From positions 36,552-100,551 of the forward strand of contig JBMDXQ010000104.1 of NCBI GenBank assembly GCA_048594975.1: DNA of 64,000 bases, in the 5' to 3' direction. The stretch comes from Vicinamibacterales bacterium. GTDB lineage: Bacteria; Acidobacteriota; Vicinamibacteria; Vicinamibacterales; 2-12-FULL-66-21. Position numbers and translations under genes: made by a program. Below the pieces are notes generated by a model that was not told the DNA's origin, did not search any database, and saw only the letters and a list, made by a program, of their open reading frames with translations. Numbering within the stretch: the stretch's first letter is position 1; every line of letters begins with the position of its first letter. This document shows positions 41,004 to 57,961 of the stretch, one piece after another.

Positions 41004-41041
41004 AATCCACCCGCTGTGCAACCGGTTGTGAGCGTGGCGCG

Positions 41042-42215: not shown

Positions 42216-42878
42216 ATGAGTTTCAGGACCCCGTCCTTGGTCATCTTGACCGTCATGCTGGCGGCTGCGGCAGAGCCCGCATCCGCCGAGATCGTCTACC
42301 TCCAGTCGGGCCGGACGATCTCGGTCAAGGCGCATCGGTACGAGGGTGACTCGATCGTCCTGACGCTACGACGGGGCGGCGAGGTCACCTGCGACCGGTC
42401 GCTGGTGGAGAAGGTCGTCCCGGATGAGGTTCCCTACGAGGAGTCCACGCCGGCCGCTCAGGCTCAGAGCGAGCCGAGTCCTGCTTCGCGCGTCCTGGAG
42501 TTCGAGACGCCGTACCGCGAGATCATCGCCGCGCTCGCGGAAGCCCACGGCGTCGATCCCATCCTGGTCACCGCGCTCATCCGGGTGGAATCCGGTTTCC
42601 GGCCGAGGGCACGGTCGCGCAAGGGCGCGATGGGCCTGATGCAGCTGATGCCCTCGACGGCCCGGGAGTACAACGTTCGCAACCCGTTCGACCCCCGTGC
42701 GAACATCGAGGCGGGCATCAAGCACCTGAAGTCGCTCATGGATCGGTTCGGGCTGGAGCGTGGGCTGGCCGCATACAACGCCGGCGTCGGTGCCGTCGAG
42801 CGGTTCCAGGGCATTCCGCCGTATCGCGAGACGCGTAGCTACGTCGCGCGCATCCTTTCGCTCGCCGGCCTCAAGTAG
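42216..42878 (+). CDS. Slt-domain lytic transglycosylase (secretion/pilus-associated type)
   Basis: Signal peptide present. Contains ALIRVESGFRPRARSRKGAMGLMQLMPSTA and AAYNAGVGAVERF. It lies directly upstream of the pilus/T2SS-like cluster. Confidence 0.85.
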   Translation: MSFRTPSLVILTVMLAAAAEPASAEIVYLQSGRTISVKAHRYEGDSIVLTLRRGGEVTCDRSLVEKVVPDEVPYEESTPAAQAQSEPSPASRVLEFETPYREIIAALAEAHGVDPILVTALIRVESGFRPRARSRKGAMGLMQLMPSTAREYNVRNPFDPRANIEAGIKHLKSLMDRFGLERGLAAYNAGVGAVERFQGIPPYRETRSYVARILSLAGLK

Positions 42879-42983: not shown

Positions 42984-43060
42984 CCGCGGATTGGTCGGCC
43001 GGTAATGTCAACACTGACAAGATCTTGCGCCGAATCGCCGGCGATCCGGTGCTGAACGCG

Positions 43061-44269
43061 ATGGAGTTCCGCTGCAGGCTCGGCACCGCGGGCGGCGAAA
43101 TCATCGAAGGCATCTACGTCGCTGACAGCGAGGCGCGGCTCAGGCGGGAGTTCGAGGACAAGGGACTCTTCGTCCTCGGCATCCAGCGCTCCGGCCCGCT
43201 GGCGCTCAGCGGCCTTGCGCTGCCGCGGCGCAGCCGCGTGCCCACGCGCGAGTTCCTCATCTTCAACCAGGAGCTCGCCACGCTGCTCAAAGCCGGCATG
43301 CCGCTCGTGCAATCGCTCGACATCCTCCGCCGGCGGGTGAGCCAGCCGCTGTTCAAGGGCGTGCTCGATGACGTGCACGAGCGGGTCCGGGGCGGCAGTG
43401 CGCTGTCGGAGGCGTTCGAGGCGCAGGGCGGTCTGTTCCCGGGCGTCTACACCGCGTCGCTGCTGGCCGGAGAAAAGAGCGGCAACCTCGAGCAGGTGAT
43501 CCGACGCTACGTCGCGTACGTGAAGACGCTGGCGGCGGTGCGGCGCAAGACGATCTCGGCGCTCATCTACCCTTCGATCCTCTTCGCCCTGTCCTGCGTC
43601 GTCGTCGGCATCATCGTGCTGCGGGTCGTCCCGGAGTTCTCCGCCTTCTACGCGATGGGCAACCAGGAGCTGCCGCTGTCCACCCGCATGCTGGTGTCGA
43701 TCTCCGATTTCGCGCTGGCCTACCTGGGTCTGCTCGTCGCCGCGCTCGCGATCGCCGCCGCCGCTGTCTGGATCTGGCTGCGCCAGCCGGGCGTCCGCGT
43801 GCGCGTCGACCGCTGGCAGCTCGACCTGCCGGGGCTGGGACCGATCGCTCGCAAGTACTCGACGTCGCAGGCGGCGCGCACGCTGGCGACGCTGCTCGGC
43901 GGCGGCATTCCGCTCGTCAACTCCATCGACGTGGCGGCGCGATCCATCCAGAACCAGTACATGGCCCGGCAGCTCGAGGTCGCCGCCCGGCAGGTACGGG
44001 AAGGGCGAGCGCTCTCGGCGACGATGAGCGACAGCGGCGTCTTCCCGGAGGTCGCGATCCGCATGGTGGAGGTGGGGGAGTCCACCGGGGCACTGCAGGA
44101 GATGCTGAACAGTGTCGCGGACTTCTTCGACGAGGACATTGATACGAGCCTCGGCCGCTTCGTGACGCTCATCGAGCCGACGCTGCTCGTGATCATGGGC
44201 CTGGTCATCGCCGGGCTGCTGCTCTCGCTGTACATGCCGCTCTTCAACCTGTCGGGAGCGCTGCGCTGA
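43061..44269 (+). CDS. GspF/PilC-family inner-membrane platform protein
   Basis: Track ORF is 43025..44269, and the ATG at 43061 is preferred. Two T2SSF repeats are present (REFLIFNQELATLLKAGMPLVQSLDIL; STSQAARTLATLLGGGIPLVNSIDV). It ends LLSLYMPLFNLSGAL. Confidence 0.9.
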   Translation: MEFRCRLGTAGGEIIEGIYVADSEARLRREFEDKGLFVLGIQRSGPLALSGLALPRRSRVPTREFLIFNQELATLLKAGMPLVQSLDILRRRVSQPLFKGVLDDVHERVRGGSALSEAFEAQGGLFPGVYTASLLAGEKSGNLEQVIRRYVAYVKTLAAVRRKTISALIYPSILFALSCVVVGIIVLRVVPEFSAFYAMGNQELPLSTRMLVSISDFALAYLGLLVAALAIAAAAVWIWLRQPGVRVRVDRWQLDLPGLGPIARKYSTSQAARTLATLLGGGIPLVNSIDVAARSIQNQYMARQLEVAARQVREGRALSATMSDSGVFPEVAIRMVEVGESTGALQEMLNSVADFFDEDIDTSLGRFVTLIEPTLLVIMGLVIAGLLLSLYMPLFNLSGALR

Positions 44270-44275
44270 GTCATC

Positions 44276-45937
44276 ATGAACGGTAAACCCTCGTCGACCG
44301 CCAACGGTACCGACGCCGATCTCTACGTCGGGGTGCCGGAGATCCCGGCGGCGGATCACGCGGCGGAGGCCGAGCAGGCCCGCCGCCTGGCCGAACGCTA
44401 CCGCCTCGAGTTCGTCGACCTGTCGCAGTTCAGCATCGACCACGAGCTGTTCCGTGCGATCCCGGCCGATCTGATGCTGCGCTACGGCTTCGTGCCCTAC
44501 CGGCGCGAAGGCAACGCCCTGAACATCGTCGTGTCCGATCCCACCGATCTGCCGATGATCGATGAGCTCGCCGTCCTGCTGGCGACGCCGATCAGGGTCA
44601 CGGTCGGGACACCGTCGGCGATCCAGTCGATCCTGAAGAAGAGCGAGAGCTCGACGCGCGTGCTCGAAGAGGCGACCGAGAGCTTCCAGCTGCAGATCCT
44701 CCGCGAAGACGAGACCGGGGAGGACCAGCTCACGGTGGAAAAGCTGACCGCCGACTCGAGTCCGGTGATCCGGCTGGTGGACACGACGATCTACAGCGCC
44801 ATCCAGCGGCGCGCGAGCGACATCCACATCGAGACGCAGGACGACGCCGTGTACGTGAAGTACCGGATCGACGGCGTGCTGCAGCCGGCGATGCGGCCCA
44901 TCGACCGGCGTTTCCACAGCACGATCATCTCGCGCGTCAAGGTCATGGCCGAGCTCGACATCGCCGAGAAGCGCGTGCCGCAGGACGGACGGTTCAAGAT
45001 GCGCATGCCCGGCAAGACCATCGACTTCCGCGTGTCGATCATGCCGAGCGTGCACGGCGAGGACGCGGTCATCCGCATCCTCGACAAGGAGTCGATCAGC
45101 GAGCAGTTCCACGAGCTGCGGCTCGACATCCTCGGCTTTCCCGACGACGAGCTGCGGCGCTTCCGCAAGTACATCGCCGAACCCTACGGCATGGTGCTGG
45201 TGACCGGCCCGACCGGCAGCGGCAAGACCACCACGCTCTACGCCGCGCTGTCGGAGATCAAGTCGATCGAGGACAAGATCATCACCATCGAGGATCCGGT
45301 CGAGTACCAGATCCAGGGCATCACCCAGATCCCGATCAACGAGAAGAAGGGGTTGACGTTTGCGCGCGGCCTGCGCTCGATCCTGCGGCACGATCCGGAC
45401 AAGATCATGGTCGGCGAGATCCGCGATGCCGAGACGGCGCAGATCGCCATCAACTCGGCGCTGACCGGACACCTGGTGTTCACGACGGTGCACGCCAACA
45501 ACGTGCTGGACGTGCTCGGCCGGTTTCTCAACATGGGCGTGGAGGCCTACCAGTTCGTCTCGGCGCTGAACTGCGTGCTGGCGCAGCGGCTGGTGCGCAA
45601 CATCTGCACGCACTGCCGCCGGCGGGCGAGGGTCACGCGCGCCCAGCTGGTCGAGTCGGCGCTCGATCCGGCGCTCGAGTCCAGCGGGCGGTTCTTCGAG
45701 GGCGCCGGTTGCATCGAATGCGGCGGCACCGGCTACAAGGGGCGCACCGCCATCTGCGAGCTGCTCGACCTCAGCGACAACATCCGGCAGATGATCCTCG
45801 ACCGCCGCCCGACCTCGGAGATCAAGAAGGCGGCGCGCGACGAGGGCATGCGGTTCCTGCGCGAGTCGGCAGTCGAGAAGGTGCTCAACGGCGTGACCAC
45901 GCTCCGCGAGATCAACAAGGTAACCTTCGTCGAATGA
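44276..45937 (+). CDS. GspE/PilB-family secretion/pilus assembly ATPase
   Basis: 553 aa. N-terminal T2SSE_N-like region includes LMLRYGFVPYRREGNALNIVVSDPTDL. Walker A is GPTGSGKTTT. Contains VGEIRD, and the tetra-Cys cluster CTHC...CIEC. Confidence 0.92.
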   Translation: MNGKPSSTANGTDADLYVGVPEIPAADHAAEAEQARRLAERYRLEFVDLSQFSIDHELFRAIPADLMLRYGFVPYRREGNALNIVVSDPTDLPMIDELAVLLATPIRVTVGTPSAIQSILKKSESSTRVLEEATESFQLQILREDETGEDQLTVEKLTADSSPVIRLVDTTIYSAIQRRASDIHIETQDDAVYVKYRIDGVLQPAMRPIDRRFHSTIISRVKVMAELDIAEKRVPQDGRFKMRMPGKTIDFRVSIMPSVHGEDAVIRILDKESISEQFHELRLDILGFPDDELRRFRKYIAEPYGMVLVTGPTGSGKTTTLYAALSEIKSIEDKIITIEDPVEYQIQGITQIPINEKKGLTFARGLRSILRHDPDKIMVGEIRDAETAQIAINSALTGHLVFTTVHANNVLDVLGRFLNMGVEAYQFVSALNCVLAQRLVRNICTHCRRRARVTRAQLVESALDPALESSGRFFEGAGCIECGGTGYKGRTAICELLDLSDNIRQMILDRRPTSEIKKAARDEGMRFLRESAVEKVLNGVTTLREINKVTFVE

Positions 45938-47010
45938 GTACCGAGCGCGCGCGTGCCCCGCTGCCCGGCTGGCTGGCCAGCTCGCCGCCGCCCGCCGCGG
46001 TCGAGATCGCACGCGAGCGCGTCACGGCGGTCGCGATGGGCGGCCGCGGCGCGCCCTTCCTCGCCGGCCACGCCACGGTCGGGCTGCCCGCCGGCGCCGT
46101 CGAGCCGTCGCTGAACGCGGTCAACGTCCACGACGCGGCGGCGCTCGCGGCGGCCGTCGGCGAAGCGCTCGACGGGCTGTCGCCGCGCCCGAAACGCATC
46201 GGCCTGGTCCTGCCCGATACCGTTGCCAAAGTGTCGCTGGTCCGCTTCGACAAGGTGCCACCGCGCCAGCACGACCTCGAGCAGCTGATCCGGTGGCAAG
46301 TGCGCAAGGCCGCGCCCTTCCGGCCGGAGGACGCGCAGATCGCGTGGCTGCCTGCGCATCGCTTCGATGACGGGGCACGCGAGTTCCTGGTGACGATGGC
46401 GCGCCGCGACGTCGTCGAGTCGTACGAAAAGGCCTGCGCGGCCGCCGGCGCCTACGCCGGCATCGTCGACCTGGCGACGTTCAACCTGGCGAACCTGATT
46501 ATGGCGGGCCGCCGCGGCGAGCGCGTTCGCAGCGAGACCGGCCCAGGGGCGCCGGGCGGCGACCCTGCGACAGGCTCAGGGTCACCCCGAGCTGCGTCGC
46601 GGGGCGACTGGCTGCTCGTCCATGCCACGCTCGACTACGCGACGCTGGTGGTCGTGCGCGCCGGCGACGTGCTGTTCTTCCGCAACCGCACGACCGAGGA
46701 CGGGGCGGACCTCGCCGACCTGGTCCACCAGACGGCGATGTACCACGAGGACCGGCTCGGCGGGGGCGGATTCGGCCGGATCTTGCTGGCGGGCGCGACG
46801 GCGCGCGGCGCCGCCGAGGCCGACCGACTGCGCCGGCAGCTGGAGGAACGGATCGGCGTGCGCGCCGAACCGGTCGGCTTCGAGCCGGCGGTCGGCCTGC
46901 GCGACCGCATCTCCGCCTCACCCGAACTGGTGGACAGGCTGGCGCCGGCCATCGGGCTGCTGCTGCGCGAGCGCGAGGCGGGCCGAACGACGCCGGAGCG
47001 GGTGGCGTAG
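45934..47010 (+). CDS. pilM: PilM-like actin-fold pilus assembly protein
   Basis: ATGA overlap with the preceding stop. Track ORF 45709..47010 has a spurious N-terminal extension. Contains RIGLVLPDTVAKVSLVRFDKVPPRQHDLEQLIRWQVRK and DLATFNLANL. Confidence 0.8.
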   Translation: MSTERARAPLPGWLASSPPPAAVEIARERVTAVAMGGRGAPFLAGHATVGLPAGAVEPSLNAVNVHDAAALAAAVGEALDGLSPRPKRIGLVLPDTVAKVSLVRFDKVPPRQHDLEQLIRWQVRKAAPFRPEDAQIAWLPAHRFDDGAREFLVTMARRDVVESYEKACAAAGAYAGIVDLATFNLANLIMAGRRGERVRSETGPGAPGGDPATGSGSPRAASRGDWLLVHATLDYATLVVVRAGDVLFFRNRTTEDGADLADLVHQTAMYHEDRLGGGGFGRILLAGATARGAAEADRLRRQLEERIGVRAEPVGFEPAVGLRDRISASPELVDRLAPAIGLLLREREAGRTTPERVA

Positions 47011-47696
47011 TGCTCAGGACCAACCTCTCGACACGCCCGTTCTACAACGAGCGCGCGGTGCACGTCGCGCTCGGCGCGGTGGCGCTCCTGGTGCTGGCGC
47101 TGACAGTTTTCAACGTGACCGACATCGTGCGGCTCTCGCGCGAGAACACCGAGCTGGGGCGGCGGATCGCGGCCGACGAAAGCGAAGCGCGGCGCCTTGC
47201 CACCGAGGCGGCAGGCATCCGCCGCGCGATCAATCGCAGCGAGCTCGAGGTCGTCGCGGCGGCGGCGCGTGAAGCCAACGACCTGATCGATCAGCGCACC
47301 TTCTCCTGGACCGCCTTCTTCAACCACATCGAGGCGACGCTGCCGCCCGACGTCATGCTGGTGGCAGTGCGCCCGTCGGTCAGGGAGCAGCGGACGCACG
47401 TGAGCATCAGCGTGCTGGCCCGCCGCACCGAGGATATCGAGGAGTTCCAGGAAAAGCTCGAGGCTACCGGCGCGTTCGAGGACATCTACCCGGCGCAGCG
47501 CGACAGCACCGGACAGGGCCTGCAGCGGGCGGTGCTCGAAGCCGTTTACACGGCAGCCGCGGCGGAGCCCGAGACGGTCGGCGCGGCGGGCGAGCCGGCG
47601 CCCACGCCCGGCACACCGGAACCCGGGAGGGCAGGCGGTGCGCCCGAGCCGGGGCCGGCGGGCACGGCGAAGTCCGCGGCAGGAGCACGGCGGTGA
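47010..47696 (+). CDS. pilN: PilN-like fimbrial assembly protein
   Basis: GTG overlaps the pilM stop. N-terminus NLSTRPFYNER is followed by a TM segment, then a coiled coil, then FSWTAFFNHIEATLPPDVML. Pro/Ala-rich tail. Confidence 0.75.
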   Translation: MLRTNLSTRPFYNERAVHVALGAVALLVLALTVFNVTDIVRLSRENTELGRRIAADESEARRLATEAAGIRRAINRSELEVVAAAAREANDLIDQRTFSWTAFFNHIEATLPPDVMLVAVRPSVREQRTHVSISVLARRTEDIEEFQEKLEATGAFEDIYPAQRDSTGQGLQRAVLEAVYTAAAAEPETVGAAGEPAPTPGTPEPGRAGGAPEPGPAGTAKSAAGARR

Positions 47697-48262
47697 CCTG
47701 GCGACGCGTCCTGTCGGAGAAGCGCCGGCTGATCTGGCCGCTGGCGGTCGCGGTGGTCGCCAACCTCGCGCTGCTCGTTCTGGTGGTGTACCCGCTCTCC
47801 AAGAAGGTGGCCGGCGGCGAGAAGGAGGCGGAAGCGGCGGCCGCCGAGCTGGCGGCGGCGCGCAAGGACCACGCCGCGGCGCGGGCGACGGTCGCGGGCA
47901 AGCAGATGGCCGACACGGCGCTGCAGCAGTTCTACTCGAGCGTGCTGCCCCCGGATCTGAGCGGCGCGCGCCGCAGCATGGCCCGGATCGACCAGCTGCT
48001 CGCGCGATCGAACCTGCAGCGCGGGCGCGCGGACATGAAGCCGGAAGAGATCCGCGACAGCCAGCTGGCGAAGCTGAAGGTCGACGTCGATTTCTCCGGG
48101 AACTATGTCGATGTGCGGCGCTTCATCTATGCGCTCGAGACGTCGCCGGAGTTCATGGTGGTCGAGAACGTCGAGCTGAGTCAGGACCAGGACGGGAAGT
48201 CGGGACTGAAGGTGACCGCGACGATTGCCACGTATTACCGGGCCGGAGGCGATGGCAACTGA
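47693..48262 (+). CDS. pilO: PilO-like pilus assembly protein
   Basis: GTGA overlap. TM segment is LIWPLAVAVVANLALLVLVV, followed by a coiled coil, then VDVDFSGNYVDVRRFIYALETSPEFMVVENVEL. Confidence 0.7.
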   Translation: MTWRRVLSEKRRLIWPLAVAVVANLALLVLVVYPLSKKVAGGEKEAEAAAAELAAARKDHAAARATVAGKQMADTALQQFYSSVLPPDLSGARRSMARIDQLLARSNLQRGRADMKPEEIRDSQLAKLKVDVDFSGNYVDVRRFIYALETSPEFMVVENVELSQDQDGKSGLKVTATIATYYRAGGDGN

Positions 48263-48848
48263 CACGGTGGCGCCCGCGAGCAACCGTCCTCGCCCATGGC
48301 TGGTCGTCGCGCTCGGGGTCGTGCTGGTCGTCTTCGTCGTCACCCGGTTCTGGCCGTTCGCGAGGCCGGCGACCGCGCCGGGCCGGGCGCAGCCGCCGCG
48401 CGCCCAGGCGCGGGCGGCGGACAACGGCACGCTCGACCCGGAAGACCTGAAAGTGAGGCTCGAGGACCTGAAGGCGCGGCGGCCGGATTGGGGCGAGGTG
48501 GATCGGAACCCGTTCGCCTTCGAGCCGAAAGCGGCGCCGCCTCCGCCGCCGGACACCGCGGCGGCGCAGCGGCCCGCCGAACCGGAAGCACCGGCGGCCC
48601 CGCCGCCGCCGCCACCGCCGCCGCCGATTCCGTTGAAGTTCATCGGCATCGTCGAGGGGCGCGGCGTCGGAAAGGTGGCGGCGTTCAGCGACTGCGTACG
48701 CACGTTTCATGGTCGCGAGGGCGACCTCGTGGACGGCCGTTACCGGCTGCTGAAGATCGGGGTCGAGTCGGTGACCATGACCTACGCGGACGGCCGCGGC
48801 GGGCCGCAGACGATTCGGTTGAGCGGCGAGGAATGCGTGAAGAAGTGA
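48252..48848 (+). CDS. PilP/GspC-HR-like protein with polyproline linker
   Basis: ATG at 48252 follows GGAGG. One TM segment, then a Pro-rich linker (APAAPPPPPPPPPIP), then a beta-rich domain LKFIGIVEGRGVGKVAAFSD..FHGREGDLVDGRYRLLKIGVESV. Confidence 0.5.
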   Translation: MATDTVAPASNRPRPWLVVALGVVLVVFVVTRFWPFARPATAPGRAQPPRAQARAADNGTLDPEDLKVRLEDLKARRPDWGEVDRNPFAFEPKAAPPPPPDTAAAQRPAEPEAPAAPPPPPPPPPIPLKFIGIVEGRGVGKVAAFSDCVRTFHGREGDLVDGRYRLLKIGVESVTMTYADGRGGPQTIRLSGEECVKK

Positions 48849-48894: not shown

Positions 48895-51369
48895 ATGATG
48901 GCGATGAAGCAGCGGCTGTTTGTACTCCTCGTTCTCGTGGTCCTGGTGTCCGGCTGCGCGGCCAGCCGCGCCTACCGGCGCGGGCAGGAGGCCGCCCGGG
49001 CGGGGGACTGGGACCAGGCGGTCGCCCACTTCACCAAGGCAGTGCAGGAGGATCCGGACAGGGCGGAATTCAAGATCTCGCTCGAGCGGGCGATGCAGAG
49101 CGCGTCGCGCGAGTACATCTCGCGCGCCCGCGAGTTCGAGGCGAAGGAACAGTACGACGCCGCCCTGGCCGCCTACCGGCGTGCCATCGAGCTCGACTCG
49201 ACCAACCGCCTCGCCGCTTCGCGGGCGGCGGAGCTCGAGCGCCTCATCCGCGAGCGCGTCGAAGCGGCCCGGCCGAAGTCGCCGATCACCCGGCTGCAGG
49301 AACAGGCACGACAGCAGGCCGCGCCGCCGCTGCTGAACCCGGCCTCGCGCGAGCCGCTGACCGTCTCGTTCAACGGCAGCCTCAAGGATTTCTTCAACTG
49401 GATCGGGACGCACAGCGGCATCAACATCACGTTCGACCAGACGTACCAGGACCGCGGGTACACCGTACAGCTCGAAGGCGTGACGCTGGAGCAGGCGCTG
49501 CAGCAGACCATGACGGCCAACCAGCTGTTCTACAAGGTGATCAACCAACGCACGATCATGGTGATCCCGGATACGCCGGCCAAGCACCAGCAGTACGACG
49601 AGCTGGTCGTGCGCGTGTTCTACGTGTCGCACGCCGACGTCACCGAGCTCGCGCAAGTGATCAACACCATCATGCGGGTGCCGACCATGCCGGTGGTGCC
49701 CACGCTGCTGCCGAACAAGACGTCGAATACCATCACCGTGCGCGCCACCGCGCCGGTCGTGGACGTGATCGAGCGGATCATCCGCGCCAACGACAAGCCG
49801 CGCGCCGAAGTGATCGTCGACGTGCAGATCCTCGAGGTGAACCGCAGCCGGACGCGCGAGCTGGGCGTGAACCTGAGCAACTACGGGATCGGGGTGATCT
49901 TCTCGCCCGAGGTCGCGCCAACCGGGACCGAGGCGCCACCCCCGTTCAACCTGAACACGATCAGCCAGGGCGTCAGCACGGCGGACTTCTGGCTGACCGT
50001 CCCGACCGCCGCGATCAGGTTCCTGGAGAGCGATACGCGGACGAAGCAGATCGCCAAGCCGCAGCTGCGCGGCGCCGAGGGGCAGGAGATGACCCTCAAC
50101 CTCGGCGACGATGTGCCGGTGCTCTCGACGGTGTTCGGCGCGGCCGTCCCGGGTGGATTCGCCAGCGTGCCGCAGTCGTCGTTCAGCTACCGCCCGGTCG
50201 GCGTCAACCTGACGATCAGCCCGCGCGTGACCTTCGACGGCGAGATCGTGCTGGACCTGACAGTCGAGAGCAGTACGCTGGGGCCGAGCATCACCGTCGC
50301 GGATCAGGAGGTGCCGTCCTTCGGCACGCGCAAGGTGAAGACGCGGCTTCGCTTGCGCGAAGGGGAGTCCAACCTGCTCGCGGGGTTGTTGCGCGACGAC
50401 CAGCGGCGCATCCTGACCGGGATCCCCGGGATCATCAGGATGCCCGTACTGCGATCGCTCTTCGGCCAGACCACTGACGAGATCTCACAGACCGACATCG
50501 TCATGCTCCTGACGCCGCACATCGTGCGGACGCACGAGCTGACGGTGGAGGACTTGGCGCCGATCTTCATCGGCACGCAGTCGAACGTCGGTCTGGCGGG
50601 ACCGCCGCCGCTCATCACCCAGCCGCCCGAGGCGCCCGAACCACAGCCCGGGGCTGCTGCGGCGCAGCCAACCGCGCCACAGGCCACGCCCACCCCGGGC
50701 GCCGCGCAGCCCGGCGTCCCCGGCCCGCCGGGGGCCGCCGCACCGGGCGTGCCGCCGACGCAGCCGCCTCTTCCGCCGGGCACCTCGCCGGTGCCGACGC
50801 TCGTGACACCGCTGCCCCCGCAGCCGACGGTGACGCCGCCGGCCGCGACGGCGACCCCGCCTGGGGCGACGGCGGCCCCGCCGGCCGTGACCGAGACCCC
50901 GCCGCGCGACGTGACGGCCCCCGCCGCGGCGCCGGCAGCCGCGCCAGCCGGCGGGACGGCGCAGGTGGTGGTGTCCGTCCCGGTCACGGAGTTCAGAGTC
51001 GGCGGCGGCCCGTACAACGTGCCGCTGTCGGTGAGCAATGCGTCGGGCGTGTCGGTGCTGACGCTGACGGTCACCTACAACCCCTCGGTCCTGCGCGTGC
51101 GCAGCGTGCAGGAGGGCTCGTTCATGACGCAGGGCGGCGTGAAGGCCAGCTTCTCCCGGCGGATCGACCCGCTGTCCGGCCGCGTGGACATCGCTATTAC
51201 GCGTACCGACGATCGGATCGGCGCCTCGGGGACTGGACTGCTCGCGGCACTGCTGTTCGACGTGATCGCTGCCGGGAGTTCGCCGGTGCAGGTCAGTGGC
51301 GTCGCGAGCACGCCGAACGGCAGCCCCGTGCAGCTGCGGTTCGGCTCGGCGACCGTCACGACGAGGTGA
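48895..51369 (+). CDS. Secretin (GspD/PilQ family) lipoprotein with N-terminal TPR region, long Pro/Ala/Thr linker and C-terminal cohesin-like domain
   Basis: Lipobox is LVVLVSGC. TPR-like helices are GDWDQAVAHFTKAVQEDP and YDAALAAYRRAIELDS. Secretin core includes KPRAEVIVDVQILEVN, RLREGESNLLAGLLRDD, GIPGIIRMPVLRSLFG and DIVMLLTPHIV. A ~130 aa low-complexity linker follows. The final domain is VVVSVPVTEFRVGGGPYNVPLSVSNASGVSVLTLTVTYNPSVLRV...GTGLLAALLFDV. Confidence 0.9.
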   Translation: MMAMKQRLFVLLVLVVLVSGCAASRAYRRGQEAARAGDWDQAVAHFTKAVQEDPDRAEFKISLERAMQSASREYISRAREFEAKEQYDAALAAYRRAIELDSTNRLAASRAAELERLIRERVEAARPKSPITRLQEQARQQAAPPLLNPASREPLTVSFNGSLKDFFNWIGTHSGINITFDQTYQDRGYTVQLEGVTLEQALQQTMTANQLFYKVINQRTIMVIPDTPAKHQQYDELVVRVFYVSHADVTELAQVINTIMRVPTMPVVPTLLPNKTSNTITVRATAPVVDVIERIIRANDKPRAEVIVDVQILEVNRSRTRELGVNLSNYGIGVIFSPEVAPTGTEAPPPFNLNTISQGVSTADFWLTVPTAAIRFLESDTRTKQIAKPQLRGAEGQEMTLNLGDDVPVLSTVFGAAVPGGFASVPQSSFSYRPVGVNLTISPRVTFDGEIVLDLTVESSTLGPSITVADQEVPSFGTRKVKTRLRLREGESNLLAGLLRDDQRRILTGIPGIIRMPVLRSLFGQTTDEISQTDIVMLLTPHIVRTHELTVEDLAPIFIGTQSNVGLAGPPPLITQPPEAPEPQPGAAAAQPTAPQATPTPGAAQPGVPGPPGAAAPGVPPTQPPLPPGTSPVPTLVTPLPPQPTVTPPAATATPPGATAAPPAVTETPPRDVTAPAAAPAAAPAGGTAQVVVSVPVTEFRVGGGPYNVPLSVSNASGVSVLTLTVTYNPSVLRVRSVQEGSFMTQGGVKASFSRRIDPLSGRVDIAITRTDDRIGASGTGLLAALLFDVIAAGSSPVQVSGVASTPNGSPVQLRFGSATVTTR

Positions 51370-51926
51370 AGAACGACATGGAACTTCGACGATCGAGCAT
51401 GGAAGAGAGCGAAGAGGATCGCATTATGCGCTCTCTACCGTTTTCCATTTCCCGTTTTTCATCCGGCCAGGCCGGCTTCACGTTTATCGAGCTGCTAGTC
51501 GTCTCGACCATCCTGCTCATTCTCGCGTCGGCGGCCATGCCCCTGGCGCGGGTGACGATGCAGCGGCAGCGCGAGGCGGAGCTGCGTCGGGCGCTGCGCG
51601 AGATGCGGACGGCGATCGACAAGTACAAGGACGCGGTTGACATGGGGCAGATCGCGTCGGTCGATGTTCGCGCGGGGAGTGAGGGCTATCCGCCGGACCT
51701 GGAGACGCTCGTCGAGGGCGTGTCGGCGGCCAACGACGCCAGCGGTCGGAAGCTCAAGTTCCTCCGGAAGGTCCCGATCGATCCGTTGACCAGCTCGACC
51801 GACTGGGGCCTGCGCTCCTACCAGGATCGTCCCGACTCGACCACCTGGGGCGGGCAGAACGTCTACGACGTCTACACGAAGTCGGACGGCACGGCGCTCG
51901 ATGGGACGAAGTACAGGGACTGGTGA
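51366..51926 (+). CDS. Prepilin-type pseudopilin (GspG-like)
   Basis: N-methylation motif is GQAGFTFIELLVVSTILLIL. The true start is probably ATG 51426 (MRSLPFSISRFSSGQAG). The globular part includes YPPDLETLV and KVPIDPLT. Confidence 0.8.
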   Translation: MKNDMELRRSSMEESEEDRIMRSLPFSISRFSSGQAGFTFIELLVVSTILLILASAAMPLARVTMQRQREAELRRALREMRTAIDKYKDAVDMGQIASVDVRAGSEGYPPDLETLVEGVSAANDASGRKLKFLRKVPIDPLTSSTDWGLRSYQDRPDSTTWGGQNVYDVYTKSDGTALDGTKYRDW

Positions 51927-51929
51927 AGG

Positions 51930-52412
51930 GTGACGGAGTGGTCAGCGGTCACTGGTAATGGCAGTTGCAGGTGGTCAACGGTGAGCGAGAGCAAGGGGAA
52001 TCCGCGGGACGCCTTGCCGCTTCCCCCTTCACGATCGGGTTTCACCCTCGTCGAGCTCCTGATCGTCATGGCGCTCATCTCACTGCTCGCGGCGATGGCG
52101 GTGGTGCAGTACAAGAACTCGGTGCGGCGCAGCGAAGAGGCCGTGCTGAAGACGAACCTGTTTCGCGTGCGCGACGCCATCGATCAGTACTACGCCGACA
52201 AGGGCAAGTACCCCGCCTCGCTCGAGTCGCTGGTGAGCGACGGCTATCTGCGCGCCGTACCGGAGGATCCGATCACGAAGTCGCGCGACACCTGGCAGAC
52301 GGTCCCCGCCGAACCTGACCCGAACAACCCCTCGGCCGACCCCGGCATCTACAACATCAAGAGCGGCGCGCCCGGCTCCGCCCTGGACGGATCGAGCTAC
52401 GTGGACTGGTAA
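51930..52412 (+). CDS. Prepilin-type pseudopilin, GspG-like
   Basis: Contains SGFTLVELLIVMALISLLAAMAV and IDQYYADKGKYPASLESLVSDGYLRAVPEDP. The start is uncertain and the leader is long in the track ORF. Confidence 0.8.
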   Translation: MTEWSAVTGNGSCRWSTVSESKGNPRDALPLPPSRSGFTLVELLIVMALISLLAAMAVVQYKNSVRRSEEAVLKTNLFRVRDAIDQYYADKGKYPASLESLVSDGYLRAVPEDPITKSRDTWQTVPAEPDPNNPSADPGIYNIKSGAPGSALDGSSYVDW

Positions 52413-52717: not shown

Positions 52718-54064
52718 CTAGTTCGATCCCGTGCAGCCAGTGACGTTGACCGTAGCGAAACCGTCGCCCGTTGGGGCGCCCGGGGCCGCTTGCACAACCG
52801 TGACGGAGATGGTCTTGCTTCCATTTACGGACCAGCGTACCGGCGCTTGGTTTCCTGTGGTCGTCGCACTGGTGGGATCGGCCCCCGGACCGCCGAAGGT
52901 CCACAGATATCGCACGATGCTGGACGTGTTTCCCGAAACCTGCGCGCGCACGATTACGTCCTGGTTGCAGGTTGGTGACGTGGTCGAAGGTGTCACGATG
53001 ACCGATGGCGGCTGGGCGGGCAGAATGGTGACGGCGGTTGACACTTGCTCAGTGAACCCGCTCGCCTCGACGGCCGTGGCTTCCACGATATAGGTGTTGG
53101 GCTCGTCGTAGGTGTGTTGAATAGTCGTCTGGCCGCTGATCGCGCCGAGCGATCGCTCCTCGCCGTCGCCGAAATCCACTTCCACGCTGCGGATGTTGGC
53201 CGTGCTGGAGACGTTGACTGTGAAGGTCGCGGGAACACCAGCCGACACCGGCGTGGTCGGTCCGGCGATGGTGATGCCGGTACGAGGATTCAGTTTCACC
53301 GTGACGGTCGCGGTCTTGCCCGCGACGTTCGCCGTCACGATCGTTTCCCTGGCGGTCGTCAGCGTCGTCCGCGCGACGCCGTTCTCGTCAGTGATGGCAG
53401 ACGAGGCGGAGAGCGTGCCGTTGTCGGCGGTGAACGTGACGGGGACTCCCGTCAAGCCGAGGCCGGACGTGTTCTCGACGCGCGCGGAGATGGTGGACGT
53501 CCCGCCGGACGGGTTCAACGTCTGCGGGGTGGCCGAGAGCACGATGTGATCCGCGGCGGCGGATCCGACGAGGATGTTCTCGAGCCTGCCGCTCGCGCCG
53601 CCTGAGTACGCCGTGATCGTGGCGGTGCCGCTCTGGCCGTTGCCGCGGAACTTCACGCGCACCTCGCCGTTGTGCGTGCGCGCCTCCTGCGGTTCGATGA
53701 TGCCGATGGTGGCCGTGAACCGCACGACCGTCCCGTTCTGCACGGGCGTGCCGGCGGCGCGGGTCGTCGTGGTCGTCGGCGTGGCTCCGGTCCCGGGCGT
53801 CGTGCCCGTTCCGTTGCCCGGCGTCGTGCCGGTCGAGGGTGGCGCCGCGGTGCCGTTCTCGATGACGGTCGCAATGATGTCAACCTCTCCGTTGGCCGGC
53901 ACCGTCATAGAAGAAGAGAACAGCGTAATGACGGAGCCGGTCGGCGCCATCAGCGGGACCTTGTCGCAGGCGGCGGCAAACGACAGGACGCCGAGGGCGG
54001 CCGCGAAGGCGATCGCGCGGGCTCGGTGTGTTACCATAATGGGCGCTAAGGATAATACTCTCAT
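52718..54064 (-). CDS. Lipoprotein with bacterial Ig-like (Big_1/invasin-type) and PKD-like domains
   Basis: Lipobox is LSFAAAC. Repeated Ig-like modules include TATITAYSGGASG, STISARVENTSGLGLTGVPVTFTADNGTLS and ENGVARTTLT. A PKD-like segment is VDFGDGEE...HTYDEPNTYIVEATA. The first 9 codons are AT-rich, so ATG 54037 may be the real start. Confidence 0.8.
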   Translation of the reverse strand: MRVLSLAPIMVTHRARAIAFAAALGVLSFAAACDKVPLMAPTGSVITLFSSSMTVPANGEVDIIATVIENGTAAPPSTGTTPGNGTGTTPGTGATPTTTTTRAAGTPVQNGTVVRFTATIGIIEPQEARTHNGEVRVKFRGNGQSGTATITAYSGGASGRLENILVGSAAADHIVLSATPQTLNPSGGTSTISARVENTSGLGLTGVPVTFTADNGTLSASSAITDENGVARTTLTTARETIVTANVAGKTATVTVKLNPRTGITIAGPTTPVSAGVPATFTVNVSSTANIRSVEVDFGDGEERSLGAISGQTTIQHTYDEPNTYIVEATAVEASGFTEQVSTAVTILPAQPPSVIVTPSTTSPTCNQDVIVRAQVSGNTSSIVRYLWTFGGPGADPTSATTTGNQAPVRWSVNGSKTISVTVVQAAPGAPTGDGFATVNVTGCTGSN

Positions 54065-54821
54065 GCATTTAGCGGGTCAAGGCGCAGGCGGCGCCCCGCG
54101 CGCGGGTGCCGCGGGCTACGCGATGGCGGCGCTGCTCGTGACCCTTGGCGTCATGGCCGTGATGCTGAGCGCCGCGATGCCGGTGTGGCGCCACCAGGCG
54201 CAGCGTGAGAAGGAAGAAGAGCTGATTTTCCGCGGCGAGCAGTATGCGCGAGCCGTCGCGCTGTTTCAGCGCAAGATGGGGCCGGGCACCATCCCGCCGA
54301 ACGTGGACGTCCTCGTCCAGCAGAAGTTCCTCCGCAAGAAGTACAAGGATCCGATGGTGCCCGACGGCGAGTTCCAGATCATCCCGTTCGGGGGCGCGGC
54401 CCCGCAGACGGGGCAGCCCGGATCGACCCGGCAGGGTCCCGGTGTTCCCGGAGCGGGCCGCGGGCCTCAGGCATCCGGTCGCGGCTCCCCACCGGGGTTC
54501 GGAGCCTCGACGATCAGCGGCGTGCCCGGGCAGTCGGCGGGGTTCACCGGCGGCGGCGTGATGGGTGTCGTGAGCAAGAGCAAGGAAGCGTCGATTCGGA
54601 TCTACCGCGGCGCCGCGTACTACAACCAGTGGCGCTTCATTTACGTCCAGCCGCAACCGGGCCAGGGAGAGGCCGGCGGCGGGAGGGGACTCGGGCCGGG
54701 ACGGGGCCGCGGCGCCGGCCCGGGTGCCGGAAGAGGCGGCGGGATGGGGCCAGGTGGCGGACGCGGACAAGGCCAGGGCCGCGGGGTCCCCTTCCCCGGG
54801 GGACGCGGGCGCGGCCAGTAA
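54063..54821 (+). CDS. GspG-like pseudopilin-fold membrane protein with atypical N-terminus and Gly/Arg-rich tail
   Basis: This is the in-frame C-terminal part of track ORF 53574..54821. N-terminal helix is GYAMAALLVTLGVMAVMLSAAMPVW, with no Glu at position +5. Contains EEELIFRGEQYARAVALFQRKMGPGTIPPNVDVLV..FLRKKYKDPM. The tail is GGGRGLGPGRGRGAGPGAGRGGGMGPGGGRGQGQGRGVPFPGGRGRGQ. Confidence 0.65.
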   Translation: MHLAGQGAGGAPRAGAAGYAMAALLVTLGVMAVMLSAAMPVWRHQAQREKEEELIFRGEQYARAVALFQRKMGPGTIPPNVDVLVQQKFLRKKYKDPMVPDGEFQIIPFGGAAPQTGQPGSTRQGPGVPGAGRGPQASGRGSPPGFGASTISGVPGQSAGFTGGGVMGVVSKSKEASIRIYRGAAYYNQWRFIYVQPQPGQGEAGGGRGLGPGRGRGAGPGAGRGGGMGPGGGRGQGQGRGVPFPGGRGRGQ

Positions 54822-56688: not shown

Positions 56689-56821
56689 ACGGTTCTTCGG
56701 CAGCCGGTAAGCGTTGCCCTACAGCCTCACAGTTATGCGGTCACGCACATCGCGGCTGCGCCACCCGGCACGCTTGGCACGAAGGCACGAGAAGCCGAGG
56801 CGACGCCGTCGCTGCATCCAC

Positions 56822-57961
56822 TTACGGGTCACCCTCCGACGACATCCCTGTCGCCTCTACCACCGCATCGTGCAAGCGCGGCCGGACTTGCTGAATCGCG
56901 TCGTTCTCGCGCGTCGGGTGCACGCGGTTGGTGAGCAGCACCACGTAGAGGTCCCGCTCCCAGTCAATCCACAGCGACGTGCCGGTAAAGCCGGTATGGC
57001 CGATGGCGTTCGGCGACATCCGCGTGCCGCACGACGAGGTCGGAACCATCGTGTCCCAGCCGAGGGTGCGCGAACTGCCGGGAACCGCCGCGCGGCGCAC
57101 GAACGTGCGCGCCGTCGTGGTCCTCGCGAGCAGGTCGCGGCCGTGCAGCGTGAGCAGCATCGCGCGCGCGAACGCGCCAACTGCCGCGGCGGTGCCGAAC
57201 AGCCCGGCGTGGCCGGCCGCCCCGCCGAGCGCCCACGCGTTCTCGTCGTGCACCTCGCCCACGAGCAGGCGCCCGCGCCAGCGGTCGACCTCCGTCGGTG
57301 CGGTCTCGGGCCGCCAGGCGCGAGGCGGGTTGAAGGTCAGCGGCTCGGACGTGAGGTACGTGGCCAGCCGGCGGAACCGGCCGGCCAGGGTCGTAGCCGG
57401 ATCCCAGCGGCCGAGGGGGATTCTCGACTGTTCTGCCGCCGTGTCGTCCCTGCGAGAAAGGTCGAGTGCCGTCGTCTCGAGGATGAACCCGAGGAGGATG
57501 AAACCCAGGTCGCTGTAGACCGACTGCGTGCGCGGCTCGTACTCGAGTGGCAGCTCGCAGATCGCGTGTTCGAACTCGGGCCGTCCGGTGCAGTCCCGGT
57601 AGAACGGCATGTACCCCGTCAGCCCGGAGCAGTGCGCGAGCAGGTCGCGGATAGTCACGCGCTCGCGATCGTGTCCGCGCCACGACCGCAGCCGCTCCGC
57701 TACGGGCGTGTCGAGCGACAGCGTGTCCTCGTCCACGGCGCGCATTGCCAGCGTCGTCGTGACGATCACCTTCGTCAGCGACGCGAGATCGAACAGGGTG
57801 CGCGGCGACGTGGGGGGGGCGTCGGCATCGTAGGTGAGCCGGCCGAACGCGGCGGTCCAGAGCGCCCCGTGCGAGCGGCCGACGTCCACGGAGGCGGCGG
57901 GAAATGCCTGTGCCGCGATCGCCTCCTGCAGGACCGCCTCGGCGCCGGCGAAGGGGGTCAC
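56822..57961 (-). CDS. Serine hydrolase of the beta-lactamase/PBP fold (AmpH/AmiE-like)
   Basis: This is the C-terminal 379 aa of track ORF 56822..59371. The GTG at 57961 overlaps the upstream symporter stop (GTGA). S-x-x-K motif is FDLASLTKV. Contains YSDLGF, and H-T-G ([11 protein letters not shown]). Confidence 0.85.

What the first reader, a model, noticed from the sequence alone, without database searches (positions are those of the whole stretch)
48895..51369. Tripartite secretin: lipoprotein anchor plus TPR (pilotin-like) N-terminus, and a C-terminal cohesin-like domain on a ~130 aa Pro/Ala/Thr tether
Seen in sequence:
- The N-terminus has the lipobox LVSGC, followed by about 100 aa of TPR-like helices.
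- Next come N-domains and a canonical secretin core.
- A long low-complexity linker follows (…PPEAPEPQPGAAAAQPTAPQATPTPGAAQPGVPGPPGAAAPGVPPTQPPLPPGTSPVP…).
- A ~150 aa beta-rich domain then follows, with a pattern that matches my memory of cohesin modules (VVVSVPVTEFRVGGGPYNVPLSVSNASGVSVLTLTVTYNPSVLRV ... GTGLLAALLFDVIAAG).

Established knowledge:
- Many secretins need a separate lipoprotein pilotin, often TPR-based (PilF/PilW/Tgl).
- 'Liposecretins' pilot themselves.
- Cohesins bind dockerin modules.

Inference:
- This is a self-piloting secretin with a fused TPR pilotin.
- A tethered cohesin could capture dockerin-tagged partners (substrates or surface enzymes) at the secretion pore.
- No dockerin-like protein is visible in this window.
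Basis: partly seen in the sequence, partly recalled or inferred. Interest (0 to 1): 0.6.

Follow-up and report, generated by a model that had tools for sequence, protein, structure and literature searches.

The report
Lipoprotein secretin with tethered cohesin
This gene encodes the outer-membrane pore of a type II secretion-like machine in a soil acidobacterium; the pore carries a lipid anchor with a short TPR module at the front and a true cohesin domain on a floppy proline-rich tether at the back, but the genome has no dockerins, so the cohesin's partner is unknown.

Summary
One uninterrupted 824-aa ORF (48895-51369, +) has five parts:
- a lipoprotein signal (LVSGC; Cys21 invariant in 56 homologues);
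- about 100 aa of TPR;
- N0-like and N1 domains plus a secretin core;
- a disordered Pro/Ala/Thr linker of about 115 aa;
- a C-terminal domain that passes Pfam Cohesin and whose AlphaFold model hits only cohesins in the PDB.

The gene lies in a conserved gspF-gspE-pilMNO-gspC-like-secretin-pseudopilin operon. About 40% of sampled Acidobacteriota genomes carry the cohesin tail. Earlier notes of this scan report the same layout in Geobacter PulQ; I did not test that.

The dockerin-capture idea is not supported:
- this 100%-complete genome has no dockerin, by three methods;
- across 301 Acidobacteriota genomes, cohesin-tail and dockerin presence are unrelated;
- the tail starts where the periplasmic S-domain of PulD/GspD starts, so the cohesin most likely sits in the periplasm.

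"Fused pilotin" is an analogy only: the lipobox supports self-piloting, but the TPR does not match the PilW pilotin family model.

The cohesin tail is dispensable. Two complete genomes of the same order keep the TPR-lipoprotein secretin without it.

The design is real, widespread and unstudied, and this scan has flagged it many times.

The parts
48895..48957 (+). Lipoprotein signal peptide with lipobox V-S-G-C. Cys21 is the predicted lipidated first residue of the mature protein, and Ala is at +2.
   Evidence: Sequence. Weak Pfam LPAM_1 hit. C21 is invariant and S19/G20 are at least 90% conserved in 56 homologues.
48958..49269 (+). Short TPR module (2-3 repeats plus a capping helix) directly after the lipid anchor.
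   Evidence: Pfam TPR_1/TPR_2/TPR_11 are above cut-off. AF2 pLDDT is about 95 and the region is all-helical. It is not a member of the PilW pilotin family: TIGR02521 scores 10.3 bits against a cut-off of 154.
49354..49806 (+). Periplasmic N0-like domain (residues 154-235) and N1/Secretin_N domain (residues 238-304).
   Evidence: Pfam Secretin_N at 239-304. AF2 gives alpha/beta domains with pLDDT 72-87. Relatives hit the STN domain in the N0-like region.
49807..50535 (+). Secretin beta-barrel core.
   Evidence: Pfam Secretin, 106.8 bits. Sequence hits to the solved secretins ExeD, PulD, GspD and PilQ. Foldseek hits to the same proteins.
50536..50616 (+). Conserved post-core segment (LTVEDLAPIFIGTQSNVGLAGPPPLI), in the position of the S-domain of classical secretins.
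   Evidence: I559, G560, T561, Q562, L567, G569, P570, L573 and I574 are invariant in alignment A1. The alignment to PulD (6hcg) ends at query residue 547, 63 residues before the end of the PulD chain. The cohesin-less orthologue in genome G110 ends just after this segment.
50617..50958 (+). Pro/Ala/Thr-rich disordered tether of about 115 aa. It contains two conserved islands: PGVP..PGVPPT.PP.PPGTSPVPTLV and PPRD.
   Evidence: AF2 pLDDT is below 50 for residues 547-685. Column conservation is 0.7-0.9 in the islands and 0.3-0.4 around them. GC rises to 0.79 in this stretch.
50959..51369 (+). C-terminal cohesin domain (nine-stranded beta-sandwich) and the stop codon.
   Evidence: Pfam Cohesin, 32.7/36.4 bits against a cut-off of 24.1. 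A profile search of PDB sequences finds 2xdh. AF2 pLDDT is 90-97. The top 50 Foldseek hits are all cohesins. The domain is homologous to multi-cohesin scaffoldin-like proteins.
43025..45937 (+). gspF-like platform gene (43025-44269) and gspE-like ATPase gene (44276-45937).
   Evidence: Pfam T2SSF and T2SSE plus MshEN. The best NCBIfam matches are GspF and GspE, both below the equivalog cut-offs.
45709..48262 (+). pilM-, pilN- and pilO-like inner-membrane assembly genes. The pilM start is uncertain.
   Evidence: Weak Pfam hits to PilM_2, PilN and PilO/T2SSM_b. NCBIfam pilM at 5.9e-12. PilO is conserved next to the secretin in 61 of 61 loci.
48225..48848 (+). GspC/PilP-like gene. The product has one transmembrane helix, a Pro-rich spacer and a C-terminal beta domain of about 70 aa.
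   Evidence: Translation. GC3 0.86 in this frame. Weak NCBIfam GspC_delta hit, E 4e-4. Present in 61 of 61 loci.
51366..52412 (+). Two GspG-like pseudopilin genes (51366-51926 and 51930-52412).
   Evidence: Pfam N_methyl. The best NCBIfam match is GspG, below cut-off. Both genes are present in 61 of 61 loci.
52718..54064 (-). Big_1/PKD lipoprotein, a conserved neighbour of the secretin. It is a candidate cargo or partner.
   Evidence: Pfam Big_1 and PKD. Lipobox FAAAC. Found within 3 kb in 49 of 61 loci. It lies directly downstream of the secretin in another family of the class and is adjacent to cohesin-less secretins in genome G258.
54063..54821 (+). Third pseudopilin-like gene, with a Gly/Arg-rich tail.
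   Evidence: Translation. Found in 43 of 61 loci within the 3-kb flank. It is in the same operon in genomes G278 and G059.
42216..42878 (+). Soluble lytic transglycosylase gene at the head of the cluster.
   Evidence: Pfam SLT, 96.4 bits. It is syntenic in G009 and G073, and lies at the other end of the operon in G278 and G059.

Best explanation
This is the outer-membrane secretin of a type II secretion-like ('Pul/OxpG-like', type IV filament) machine of a Vicinamibacterales acidobacterium.

Shown:
- One polypeptide carries a lipoprotein signal, a short TPR module, N0-like and N1 domains, a secretin barrel, a conserved post-core segment, a disordered Pro-rich tether of about 115 residues, and a true cohesin-fold domain.
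- The gene sits in a conserved operon with gspF, gspE, pilM/N/O-like genes, a GspC/PilP-like gene and GspG-like pseudopilins.
- A Big_1/PKD lipoprotein and a third pseudopilin are conserved neighbours.

Inferred:
1. Cys21 is lipidated and the protein reaches the outer membrane by the lipoprotein route, so it needs no separate pilotin, as with HxcQ. The TPR sits beside the anchor as a built-in accessory module.
2. The tail leaves the barrel where the S-domain of PulD and GspD lies, on the periplasmic side. Each channel would therefore dangle about 12-15 cohesins into the periplasm on tethers long enough to reach the channel entrance or the inner-membrane platform.
3. The genome encodes no dockerin, so the cohesin binds a non-dockerin partner. 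The likeliest candidates are components or cargo of the system itself. The Big_1/PKD lipoprotein and the pseudopilins are the leading but unproven candidates.
4. The module is accessory rather than essential to the pore, because related genomes keep the TPR-lipoprotein secretin without it.
For: Architecture:
- Pfam.
- AF2 models.
- Foldseek: the top 50 hits of the C-terminal model are all cohesins; the full-length model hits secretins and cohesins.
- PDB sequence hits.

Lipobox: conserved, with C21 invariant.

Operon identity.

Synteny:
- PilO, the GspC-like gene, the secretin with cohesin, and two pseudopilins are together in 61 of 61 Vicinamibacterales loci.
- The Big_1/PKD gene is within 3 kb in 49 of 61.
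- The same gene set is collinear in another family of the class.

Spread: the cohesin tail is in 123 of 301 Acidobacteriota genomes and 91 of 186 genera. Most matches lie at the end of open frames of about 660-1,170 aa.

Periplasmic origin of the tail:
- The alignments to PulD (6hcg, 657 aa) and ETEC GspD (5zdh, 646 aa) end at query residues 547 and 545.
- That leaves their last 60-63 residues unmatched. By established knowledge these form the S-domain, which binds the pilotin under the outer membrane.

No dockerin. There is no phylum-wide association with dockerin.

Accessory nature:
- Genome G110 has a 586-aa orthologue with lipobox and TPR that ends right after the GPPP motif.
- Genome G258 has two orthologues of about 660 aa.
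- A cohesin-less TPR-lipoprotein paralogue exists in this genome.

Weak lead on the partner: after controlling for the other components, cohesin distances co-vary most with pseudopilin 2 (partial r 0.40), Big_1/PKD (0.34) and pseudopilin 1 (0.28). They do not co-vary with the TPR (0.09) or the core (-0.08).
Against: - No partner has been identified, and nothing here shows binding.
- The co-variation signal may only reflect shared recombination history, because the cohesin-coding 3' end, the pseudopilin genes and the Big_1/PKD gene are physically adjacent.
- The Big_1/PKD gene also accompanies cohesin-less secretins in genome G258, so it does not depend on the cohesin.
- Topology is inferred from solved homologues, not tested.
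- Lipidation and the Lol sorting rules of Acidobacteriota are untested.
- The AF2 monomer model gives no contact between the tether or cohesin and the rest of the protein.
- All system components score below NCBIfam equivalog cut-offs, so the label 'type II secretion' as opposed to 'pilus' is by best match only.
- Orthology to Geobacter PulQ rests on earlier notes of this scan and on one paper's description of the Pul system. No Geobacter sequence was compared here.
Confidence: 0.6

Rival explanations
1. The tethered cohesin captures dockerin-tagged substrates or surface enzymes at the secretion pore, like a minimal cell-bound cellulosome.
For: The domain is a genuine cohesin. It is homologous to the multi-cohesin scaffoldin-like proteins found in the same search. 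Some other Acidobacteriota do encode canonical dockerins, sometimes next to free cohesins.
Against: This complete genome has no dockerin by Pfam, by motif or by a lineage-specific HMM, and this is its only cohesin. In the window's own order and family, 22 of 26 genomes have the tail and only 3 have any dockerin. Phylum-wide the odds ratio is 0.85, p 0.55. The tail starts at the periplasmic S-domain position, and no route to the cell surface is known.
Confidence: 0.05
2. The cohesin is a structural or envelope-anchoring module rather than a receptor for a specific protein. It might bind peptidoglycan or another envelope polymer, as the AMIN domains of PilQ do. Or it might simply act as a bulky periplasmic spacer or ring that positions the channel.
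For: No partner is detectable. A lytic transglycosylase gene is a conserved part of the cluster, which points to cell-wall remodelling around the machine. This secretin has no AMIN domain, whereas the genome's 878-aa secretin, which I read as a type IVa pilus PilQ, has a long N-terminal region that looks AMIN-like by eye. The tail can be lost without losing the secretin.
Against: To my knowledge cohesins are not known to bind glycans. Polar residues on strand beta-6 (R763, D765, R770) and the GxFMxQGG loop are 90-99% conserved across diverse tails. That fits a specific binding surface, though it could equally be structural. Part of the tether sequence is itself conserved.
Confidence: 0.2
3. 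The cohesin or the conserved tether motifs bind within the secretin multimer itself. The target could be the lipid-anchored TPR of a neighbouring subunit, giving a cis equivalent of the pilotin/S-domain staple that stabilises or regulates the ring.
For: TPR modules bind extended peptides. The lipid-anchored TPR and the emerging C-terminal segment should both lie under the outer membrane at the barrel periphery (inference from the pilotin/S-domain complexes 5zdh and 6hcg). The post-core segment and the PPGTSPVP and PPRD islands are conserved. PPRD also recurs in the tail of the cohesin-less paralogue.
Against: Cohesin-less orthologues keep the TPR, so the TPR does not need the cohesin. Co-variation between cohesin and TPR is near zero after controls (partial r 0.09). 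AF2 places the whole tether as disordered with no intramolecular docking, although a monomer model cannot show contacts between subunits.
Confidence: 0.12

Closest known systems
PulQ ('secretin lipoprotein') of the Geobacter/Pelobacter Pul/OxpG atypical type II secretion system (Mehta et al. 2006, cited in PMC3543383 and PMC6013743)
   Same: The reported system has gspF/gspE-type genes, a secretin and three pseudopilins (PulG, OxpG, TklG; PMC3543383). This cluster also has three pseudopilin-like genes plus gspF and gspE. Earlier notes of this scan say PulQ has the same lipobox-TPR-secretin-tether-cohesin layout.
   Different: The phylum differs (Acidobacteriota, not Desulfobacterota). No Geobacter sequence was compared here, so orthology is a lead and not a result. 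The known Geobacter cargo is OmpB, a multicopper oxidase. Here the conserved neighbour is a Big_1/PKD lipoprotein. None of the papers I could search mentions the cohesin.
HxcQ liposecretin of Pseudomonas aeruginosa (Viarre et al. 2009, PMC2797151, cited in PMC12475490), and other lipoprotein secretins (BfpB, TcpC)
   Same: It is a secretin with its own N-terminal lipoprotein signal, which replaces a separate pilotin for outer-membrane targeting.
   Different: From my own knowledge, not tested here, HxcQ has no TPR module and no C-terminal cohesin or long tether. Lipidation of the present protein is predicted only.
Classical T2SS secretins GspD/PulD with a C-terminal S-domain bound by a pilotin (PDB 6hcg, 5zdh, 5wq7)
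   Same: It shares the secretin core and N-domains. The C-terminal extension starts at the same point as the S-domain.
   Different: It is below the GspD equivalog cut-off (143.6 bits against 351). It has only an N0-like and one N1-type domain. The S-domain is replaced by a short conserved segment, a disordered tether of about 115 aa and a cohesin. No separate pilotin gene is seen in the cluster.
Non-cellulosomal cohesin of Archaeoglobus fulgidus (PDB 2xdh) and cellulosomal type I/II cohesins
   Same: It has the same fold (target TM 0.80, E 6e-11) and detectable sequence homology. It shares the GxSGxG motif before strand 7.
   Different: Those cohesins have dockerin partners encoded in the same genome. 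This genome has none. This cohesin is fused to an outer-membrane channel and is probably periplasmic.
TPR lipoprotein pilotins PilF/PilW/Tgl of type IVa pili
   Same: It is a lipid-anchored TPR module associated with a secretin.
   Different: Here the TPR is fused in cis, has only about 2-3 repeats (about 100 aa), and does not match the PilW family model (10.3 bits against 154). The best NCBIfam similarity of the N-terminus is to the N-terminus of the Myxococcus TraC lipoprotein (E 5e-15, far below cut-off).

Membership tests
Secretin (Pfam PF00263 / PF03958) | Secretin C-terminal barrel domain and Secretin_N domain, both above the gathering score. | tested here: met
   Secretin 106.8 bits (cut-off 27.5) and Secretin_N 35.0 bits (cut-off 28.2). 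Sequence and structure hits to solved secretins.
T2SS secretin GspD (NCBIfam TIGR02517 equivalog) | Full-length score above the equivalog cut-off. | tested here: not met
   143.6 bits against a cut-off of 351.35. Only model positions 307-594 are matched.
Type IV pilus secretin PilQ (TIGR02515) | Score above the subfamily cut-off. | tested here: not met
   106.8 bits against 284.35. A separate 878-aa secretin with a long N-terminal region, which I read as PilQ by eye, is elsewhere in the genome.
Cohesin (Pfam PF00963) | Profile score above the gathering threshold. | tested here: met
   32.7 bits in the full protein and 36.4 bits on the isolated domain, against a cut-off of 24.1. Own-genome scan gives 36.4 bits.
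Cohesin (fold) | Nine-stranded jelly-roll beta-sandwich that superposes on solved cohesins. | tested here: met
   AF2 pLDDT 90-97. The top 50 Foldseek PDB hits are all cohesins; 2xdh has E 6e-11 and target TM 0.80.
Cohesin-dockerin system | A dockerin-bearing partner encoded in the same genome. | tested here: not met
   PF00404 best E is 0.88, in an FG-GAP repeat protein. No paired calcium loops. No hit with an acidobacterial dockerin HMM. No co-occurrence across the phylum.
Cohesin-dockerin system | Calcium-dependent binding of a dockerin by the cohesin's 8-3-6-5 strand face. | not testable with these tools
   Only conservation could be examined. R763, D765 and R770 on strand 6 are 90-99% conserved in 68 diverse tails.
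Liposecretin (HxcQ type) | N-terminal lipoprotein signal peptide with a lipobox Cys. | tested here: met
   The sequence reads LVLVVLVSGC, with C21 invariant in 56 homologues. The cohesin-less orthologues and the paralogue also have lipoboxes.
Liposecretin (HxcQ type) | Lipidation-dependent, pilotin-independent outer-membrane targeting. | not testable with these tools
   This needs globomycin or palmitate labelling and a Cys21 mutant.
TPR pilotin PilF/PilW (TIGR02521) | Score above the family cut-off. | tested here: not met
   10.3 bits against 154, E 0.38. The module has only about 100 aa of TPR.
Geobacter Pul/OxpG atypical T2SS | Orthology of the secretin and gene cluster to GSU1776-GSU1784. 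| not tested
The gene content is similar to the description in PMC3543383. Earlier notes of this scan assert the same architecture for PulQ.

The most novel reading that the evidence does not exclude
The ring of about 12-15 tethered cohesins could be a built-in periplasmic receptor of the secretion machine, working without any dockerin. It would 'fish' for a partner of the system itself and concentrate it at the channel entrance. The candidates are the conserved Big_1/PKD lipoprotein, as cargo or accessory, or a pseudopilin. That would be both a new kind of cohesin ligand and a secretin-encoded substrate-recruitment device for type II secretion.
Probability: 0.25. Interest if true: 0.75.

Novelty: new variant of a known kind. 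Interest (0 to 1): 0.45.

Why it matters
How type II secretion systems recognise their cargo is still poorly understood. A secretin that carries its own protein-docking module on a long tether would be a concrete, testable handle on that question. It would also show a cohesin working in the periplasm of a Gram-negative bacterium without a dockerin.

The design is not a curiosity of one genome. It is in about 40% of sampled Acidobacteriota genomes. According to earlier notes of this scan it also occurs in Geobacter and in Betaproteobacteria, so a genetically tractable host may exist.

Against this:
- the architecture is already visible in automatic domain annotation;
- this scan has flagged it more than 70 times;
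- nothing found here identifies the partner.

Tried and rejected
1. Frameshift or misassembly as the source of the fusion. Rejected: it is one frame with uniform GC3, and the architecture is the same in all close relatives.

2. Dockerin partner. I searched with Pfam, a calcium-loop regular expression and a home-made acidobacterial dockerin HMM. Only an FG-GAP repeat protein scored weakly.

3. Phylogenetic profile of cohesin tail against dockerin in 301 genomes. No association.

4. Using cohesin-less genomes of the same order to find a co-lost gene. This was uninformative:
- the G009 secretin is cut by a contig end;
- in G110 and G258 the secretin lies apart from the rest of the machinery;
- the two genomes of another family in the class that scored 'no cohesin' do have a divergent cohesin-like tail, which the A2 profile missed (checked in G278). 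The 123 of 301 count is therefore a lower bound.

5. Mirror-tree co-variation among operon components. It gives a weak lead towards pseudopilin 2, Big_1/PKD and pseudopilin 1. It is confounded by physical linkage, so I do not count it as evidence of binding.

6. An intramolecular docking site for the tether in the AF2 monomer. None was found.

7. The conserved linker motif PG[TS][ST]PVP as a family-wide signature. It was found in only 4 of 32 representative proteins of at least 600 aa, a set that includes both secretins and non-secretin multi-cohesin proteins. It is therefore lineage-level only.

8. c-di-GMP-type MshEN motif in the ATPase N-terminus. Not evident by eye.

9. Literature. No paper in the library combines secretin, 'cohesin domain' and 'type II secretion'. 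The 69 papers containing secretin, cohesin and dockerin that I saw listed were about cellulosome engineering. GSU1778 gave no hit, and Mehta 2006 is not held.

10. A genome-contig scan to reach other phyla. It returned only Vicinamibacterales, because the derived patterns were too specific.


Full report
**Observation**

The ORF 48874/48895-51369 (+) is a single open frame with GC3 of 0.91. From the ATG at 48895 it encodes 824 aa beginning MMAMKQRLFVLLVLVVLVSGC.

Pfam finds the following, all above gathering score:

| Domain | Residues | Bits |
|---|---|---|
| TPR_1 / TPR_2 | 27-104 | 44.3 / 39.7 |
| Secretin_N | 239-304 | 35.0 |
| Secretin | 377-545 | 106.8 |
| Cohesin | 708-810 | 32.7 (cut-off 24.1; 36.4 on the isolated domain) |

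A 56-sequence alignment shows Cys21 invariant and S19/G20 nearly so.

AlphaFold2 with that alignment gives:
- a confident TPR (pLDDT about 95);
- N0-like and N1 domains;
- a moderately confident barrel protomer;
- a disordered stretch at 547-685 (pLDDT below 50);
- a very confident beta-sandwich at 689-824 (pLDDT 90-97).

A separate model of the tail was searched against the PDB. The top 50 hits are all cohesins. The best is the non-cellulosomal Archaeoglobus fulgidus cohesin 2xdh (E 6e-11, target TM 0.80). The same entry is the only sequence-profile hit. The full-length model hits secretins and cohesins.

**Context**

The gene lies in a cluster with this order:
1. SLT lytic transglycosylase
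2. gspF-like gene
3. gspE-like gene
4. pilM-, pilN- and pilO-like genes
5. a gene for a bitopic protein with a Pro-rich spacer and a small C-terminal beta domain (weak GspC_delta hit)
6. this secretin
7. two GspG-like pseudopilin genes
8. a convergent Big_1/PKD lipoprotein gene
9. a third pseudopilin-like gene with a Gly/Arg-rich tail

The best NCBIfam matches are to T2SS families, but all are below equivalog cut-offs. The system is therefore 'type II secretion-like' rather than a canonical Gsp system.

The genome has four other secretins: one that I read as PilQ with an AMIN-like N-terminus, two that I read as CpaC/RcpA-like, and one cohesin-less TPR-lipoprotein paralogue. Those class assignments are by eye, not by a family search.

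**Distribution**

- More than 4,000 database proteins match. The best 120 are 61-89% identical (plus the window's own product at 100%), and nearly all show TPR plus Secretin. About three quarters also have a precomputed Cohesin hit. The few names given are 'general secretion pathway protein D' or Vicinamibacterales/Acidobacteria MAG proteins.
- A genome scan returned 80 Vicinamibacterales or Acidobacteriota loci.
- In the 61 loci with full flanks, PilO, the GspC-like gene, the secretin with cohesin, and both pseudopilins are present in 61 of 61. The Big_1/PKD gene is within 3 kb in 49 of 61, and the third pseudopilin in 43 of 61.
- In another family of the same class the whole set is collinear: gspF-gspE-pilMNO-pseudopilins-secretin-Big/PKD-SLT-third pseudopilin. 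In genome G278 of that family the secretin again has lipobox, TPR, Pro-rich tether and a divergent cohesin-like tail.
- In a sample of 301 Acidobacteriota genomes, the cohesin-tail profile matches 123 genomes in 91 of 186 genera. Most matches are at the end of open frames of 660-1,170 aa. This is a lower bound, because the profile misses divergent tails.
- The domain is homologous to repeated cohesins of scaffoldin-like proteins, some with type IX secretion sorting tails.

**The dockerin hypothesis**

- In the 100%-complete 7.2-Mb assembly, Dockerin_1 has no hit better than E 0.88. That hit is an FG-GAP repeat protein.
- A regular expression for paired calcium loops finds none. The same expression matches the real acidobacterial dockerins recovered.
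- An HMM built from those dockerins finds nothing else.
- This secretin carries the only cohesin in the genome.
- In the same 301 genomes, 112 have a dockerin, but the two traits are independent: 43 have both, 80 the tail only, 69 a dockerin only and 109 neither (odds ratio 0.85, p 0.55).
- In the window's own order and family, 22 of 26 genomes have the tail and only 3 have any dockerin.

The cohesin therefore persists in lineages without dockerins, so its ligand there is something else.

**Topology**

Alignments to PulD (6hcg, 657 aa) and ETEC GspD (5zdh, 646 aa) end at query residues 547 and 545. That leaves their last 60-63 residues unmatched. By established knowledge those residues form the S-domain, which packs on the outside of the barrel on the periplasmic side and binds the lipoprotein pilotin. 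The tail of the present protein starts at that point.

I therefore infer that the tether and cohesin are periplasmic. About 115 disordered Pro-rich residues could span much of the periplasm. This is inference, not a test. Reaching the cell surface would need an unknown export route.

**The N-terminal module**

The lipobox supports self-targeting of the HxcQ 'liposecretin' type (PMC2797151, cited in PMC12475490). The TPR is short and does not belong to the PilW pilotin family (10.3 bits against 154). 'Fused pilotin' is thus a functional analogy.

The TPR and cohesin are separable. In the complete genome G110 the orthologue (51% identical, 586 aa) keeps lipobox and TPR but ends just after the conserved GPPP segment. 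G258 has two orthologues in open frames of about 660 aa, both next to Big/PKD genes. This genome's own paralogue has lipobox, TPR and a Pro-rich tail but no cohesin. The cohesin is therefore an accessory module.

**Search for a partner**
- Conservation across 68 diverse tails highlights G741, F743, M744, G747/G748, F753, G762, R763, D765, R770, the GASGxG motif and G794. The charged residues lie on strand 6, part of the face that binds dockerins in classical cohesins. That is compatible with a conserved binding surface but does not prove one.
- The tether contains conserved islands (PGVP..PPGTSPVPTLV and PPRD). The first is lineage-restricted. PPRD recurs in the paralogue's tail.
- In a mirror-tree analysis of 48 loci, the cohesin's residual co-variation is highest with pseudopilin 2 (0.40), Big_1/PKD (0.34) and pseudopilin 1 (0.28). 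It is about zero with the TPR, the barrel and the GspC-like domain. These are the genes physically next to the cohesin-coding 3' end, so shared recombination history is an equally good explanation. I treat this only as a lead.

**Comparison with what is known**

The closest described system appears to be the Geobacter/Pelobacter Pul ('atypical T2SS') system. It has three pseudopilins (PulG, OxpG, TklG) and secretes the multicopper oxidase OmpB (PMC3543383; PMC6013743). Earlier notes of this scan state that its secretin PulQ has the same lipobox-TPR-secretin-tether-cohesin layout. I could not compare sequences, so that remains a lead.

I found no paper that describes or tests a cohesin on a secretin.

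**Verdict**

This is a real, widespread and apparently unstudied variant of a secretin. Its cohesin is genuine, most likely periplasmic and dockerin-independent, and its ligand is unknown. This scan has already flagged the same design in at least 70 genomes, so this window adds a further member plus the negative dockerin result, the loss cases and the Big/PKD linkage. It is not a new kind of system.

Noticed in passing
genome contig C74:59322-60902 (outside the window): There is a paralogous secretin, 34% identical. It also has a lipobox (LAIGC), an N-terminal TPR and a Pro-rich C-terminal tail containing APPRDP. It has no cohesin and ends in a Gly/Arg-rich stretch. No gspE, gspF or pilMNO paralogues were detected next to it.
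   Followed up: partly
window 50780-50830 and about 50900-50910 (residues about 618-639 and 669-672): Two islands of conservation lie inside the otherwise variable tether: PGVP..PGVPPT.PP.PPGTSPVPTLV and PPRD. The first is restricted to close relatives. A similar PPGASPSP occurs in a secretin of another family (L019). Their function is unknown.
   Followed up: partly
window 52718-54064 (-) and 54063-54821 (+): The Big_1/PKD lipoprotein gene and the third pseudopilin-like gene (with a Gly/Arg-rich tail) are divergent, and their start codons overlap. Both are conserved companions of the secretin across the class, in varying order and orientation. The lipoprotein has Asp at +2 after the lipobox Cys here, but Ala in the G278 homologue.
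   Followed up: partly
L017 (G258:C1:566001-586000): A complete genome of the same order has two cohesin-less copies of this secretin 6 kb apart. Each is next to a multi-PKD Big/PKD gene and lies away from any gspE or gspF gene.
   Followed up: partly
window 38958-41183 (-): A BMC-domain shell protein gene is followed by an aldehyde dehydrogenase gene, forming a small microcompartment-like module just upstream of the secretion cluster.
   Followed up: no
window 54907-63999: This stretch holds two sodium:solute symporter genes, a GHL10 glycosyl-hydrolase-like gene, and a divergent CarboxypepD_reg plus outer-membrane beta-barrel (TonB-dependent-type) gene. It may be a glycan-scavenging locus.
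   Followed up: no
genome contig C54:21521-22714 (L001): The only weak 'dockerin' hit in the genome is a secreted FG-GAP/VCBS-type repeat protein with seven GDxNxDGxxD loops. It is not a dockerin.
   Followed up: yes
G279:C1:7824932-7825548, G189:C1:844005-844646, G152:C34 (other Acidobacteriota): In some other Acidobacteriota, small free cohesin ORFs lie right next to canonical dockerin-bearing ORFs. Genuine cohesin-dockerin pairs therefore exist in the phylum, separately from the secretin cohesin.
   Followed up: no
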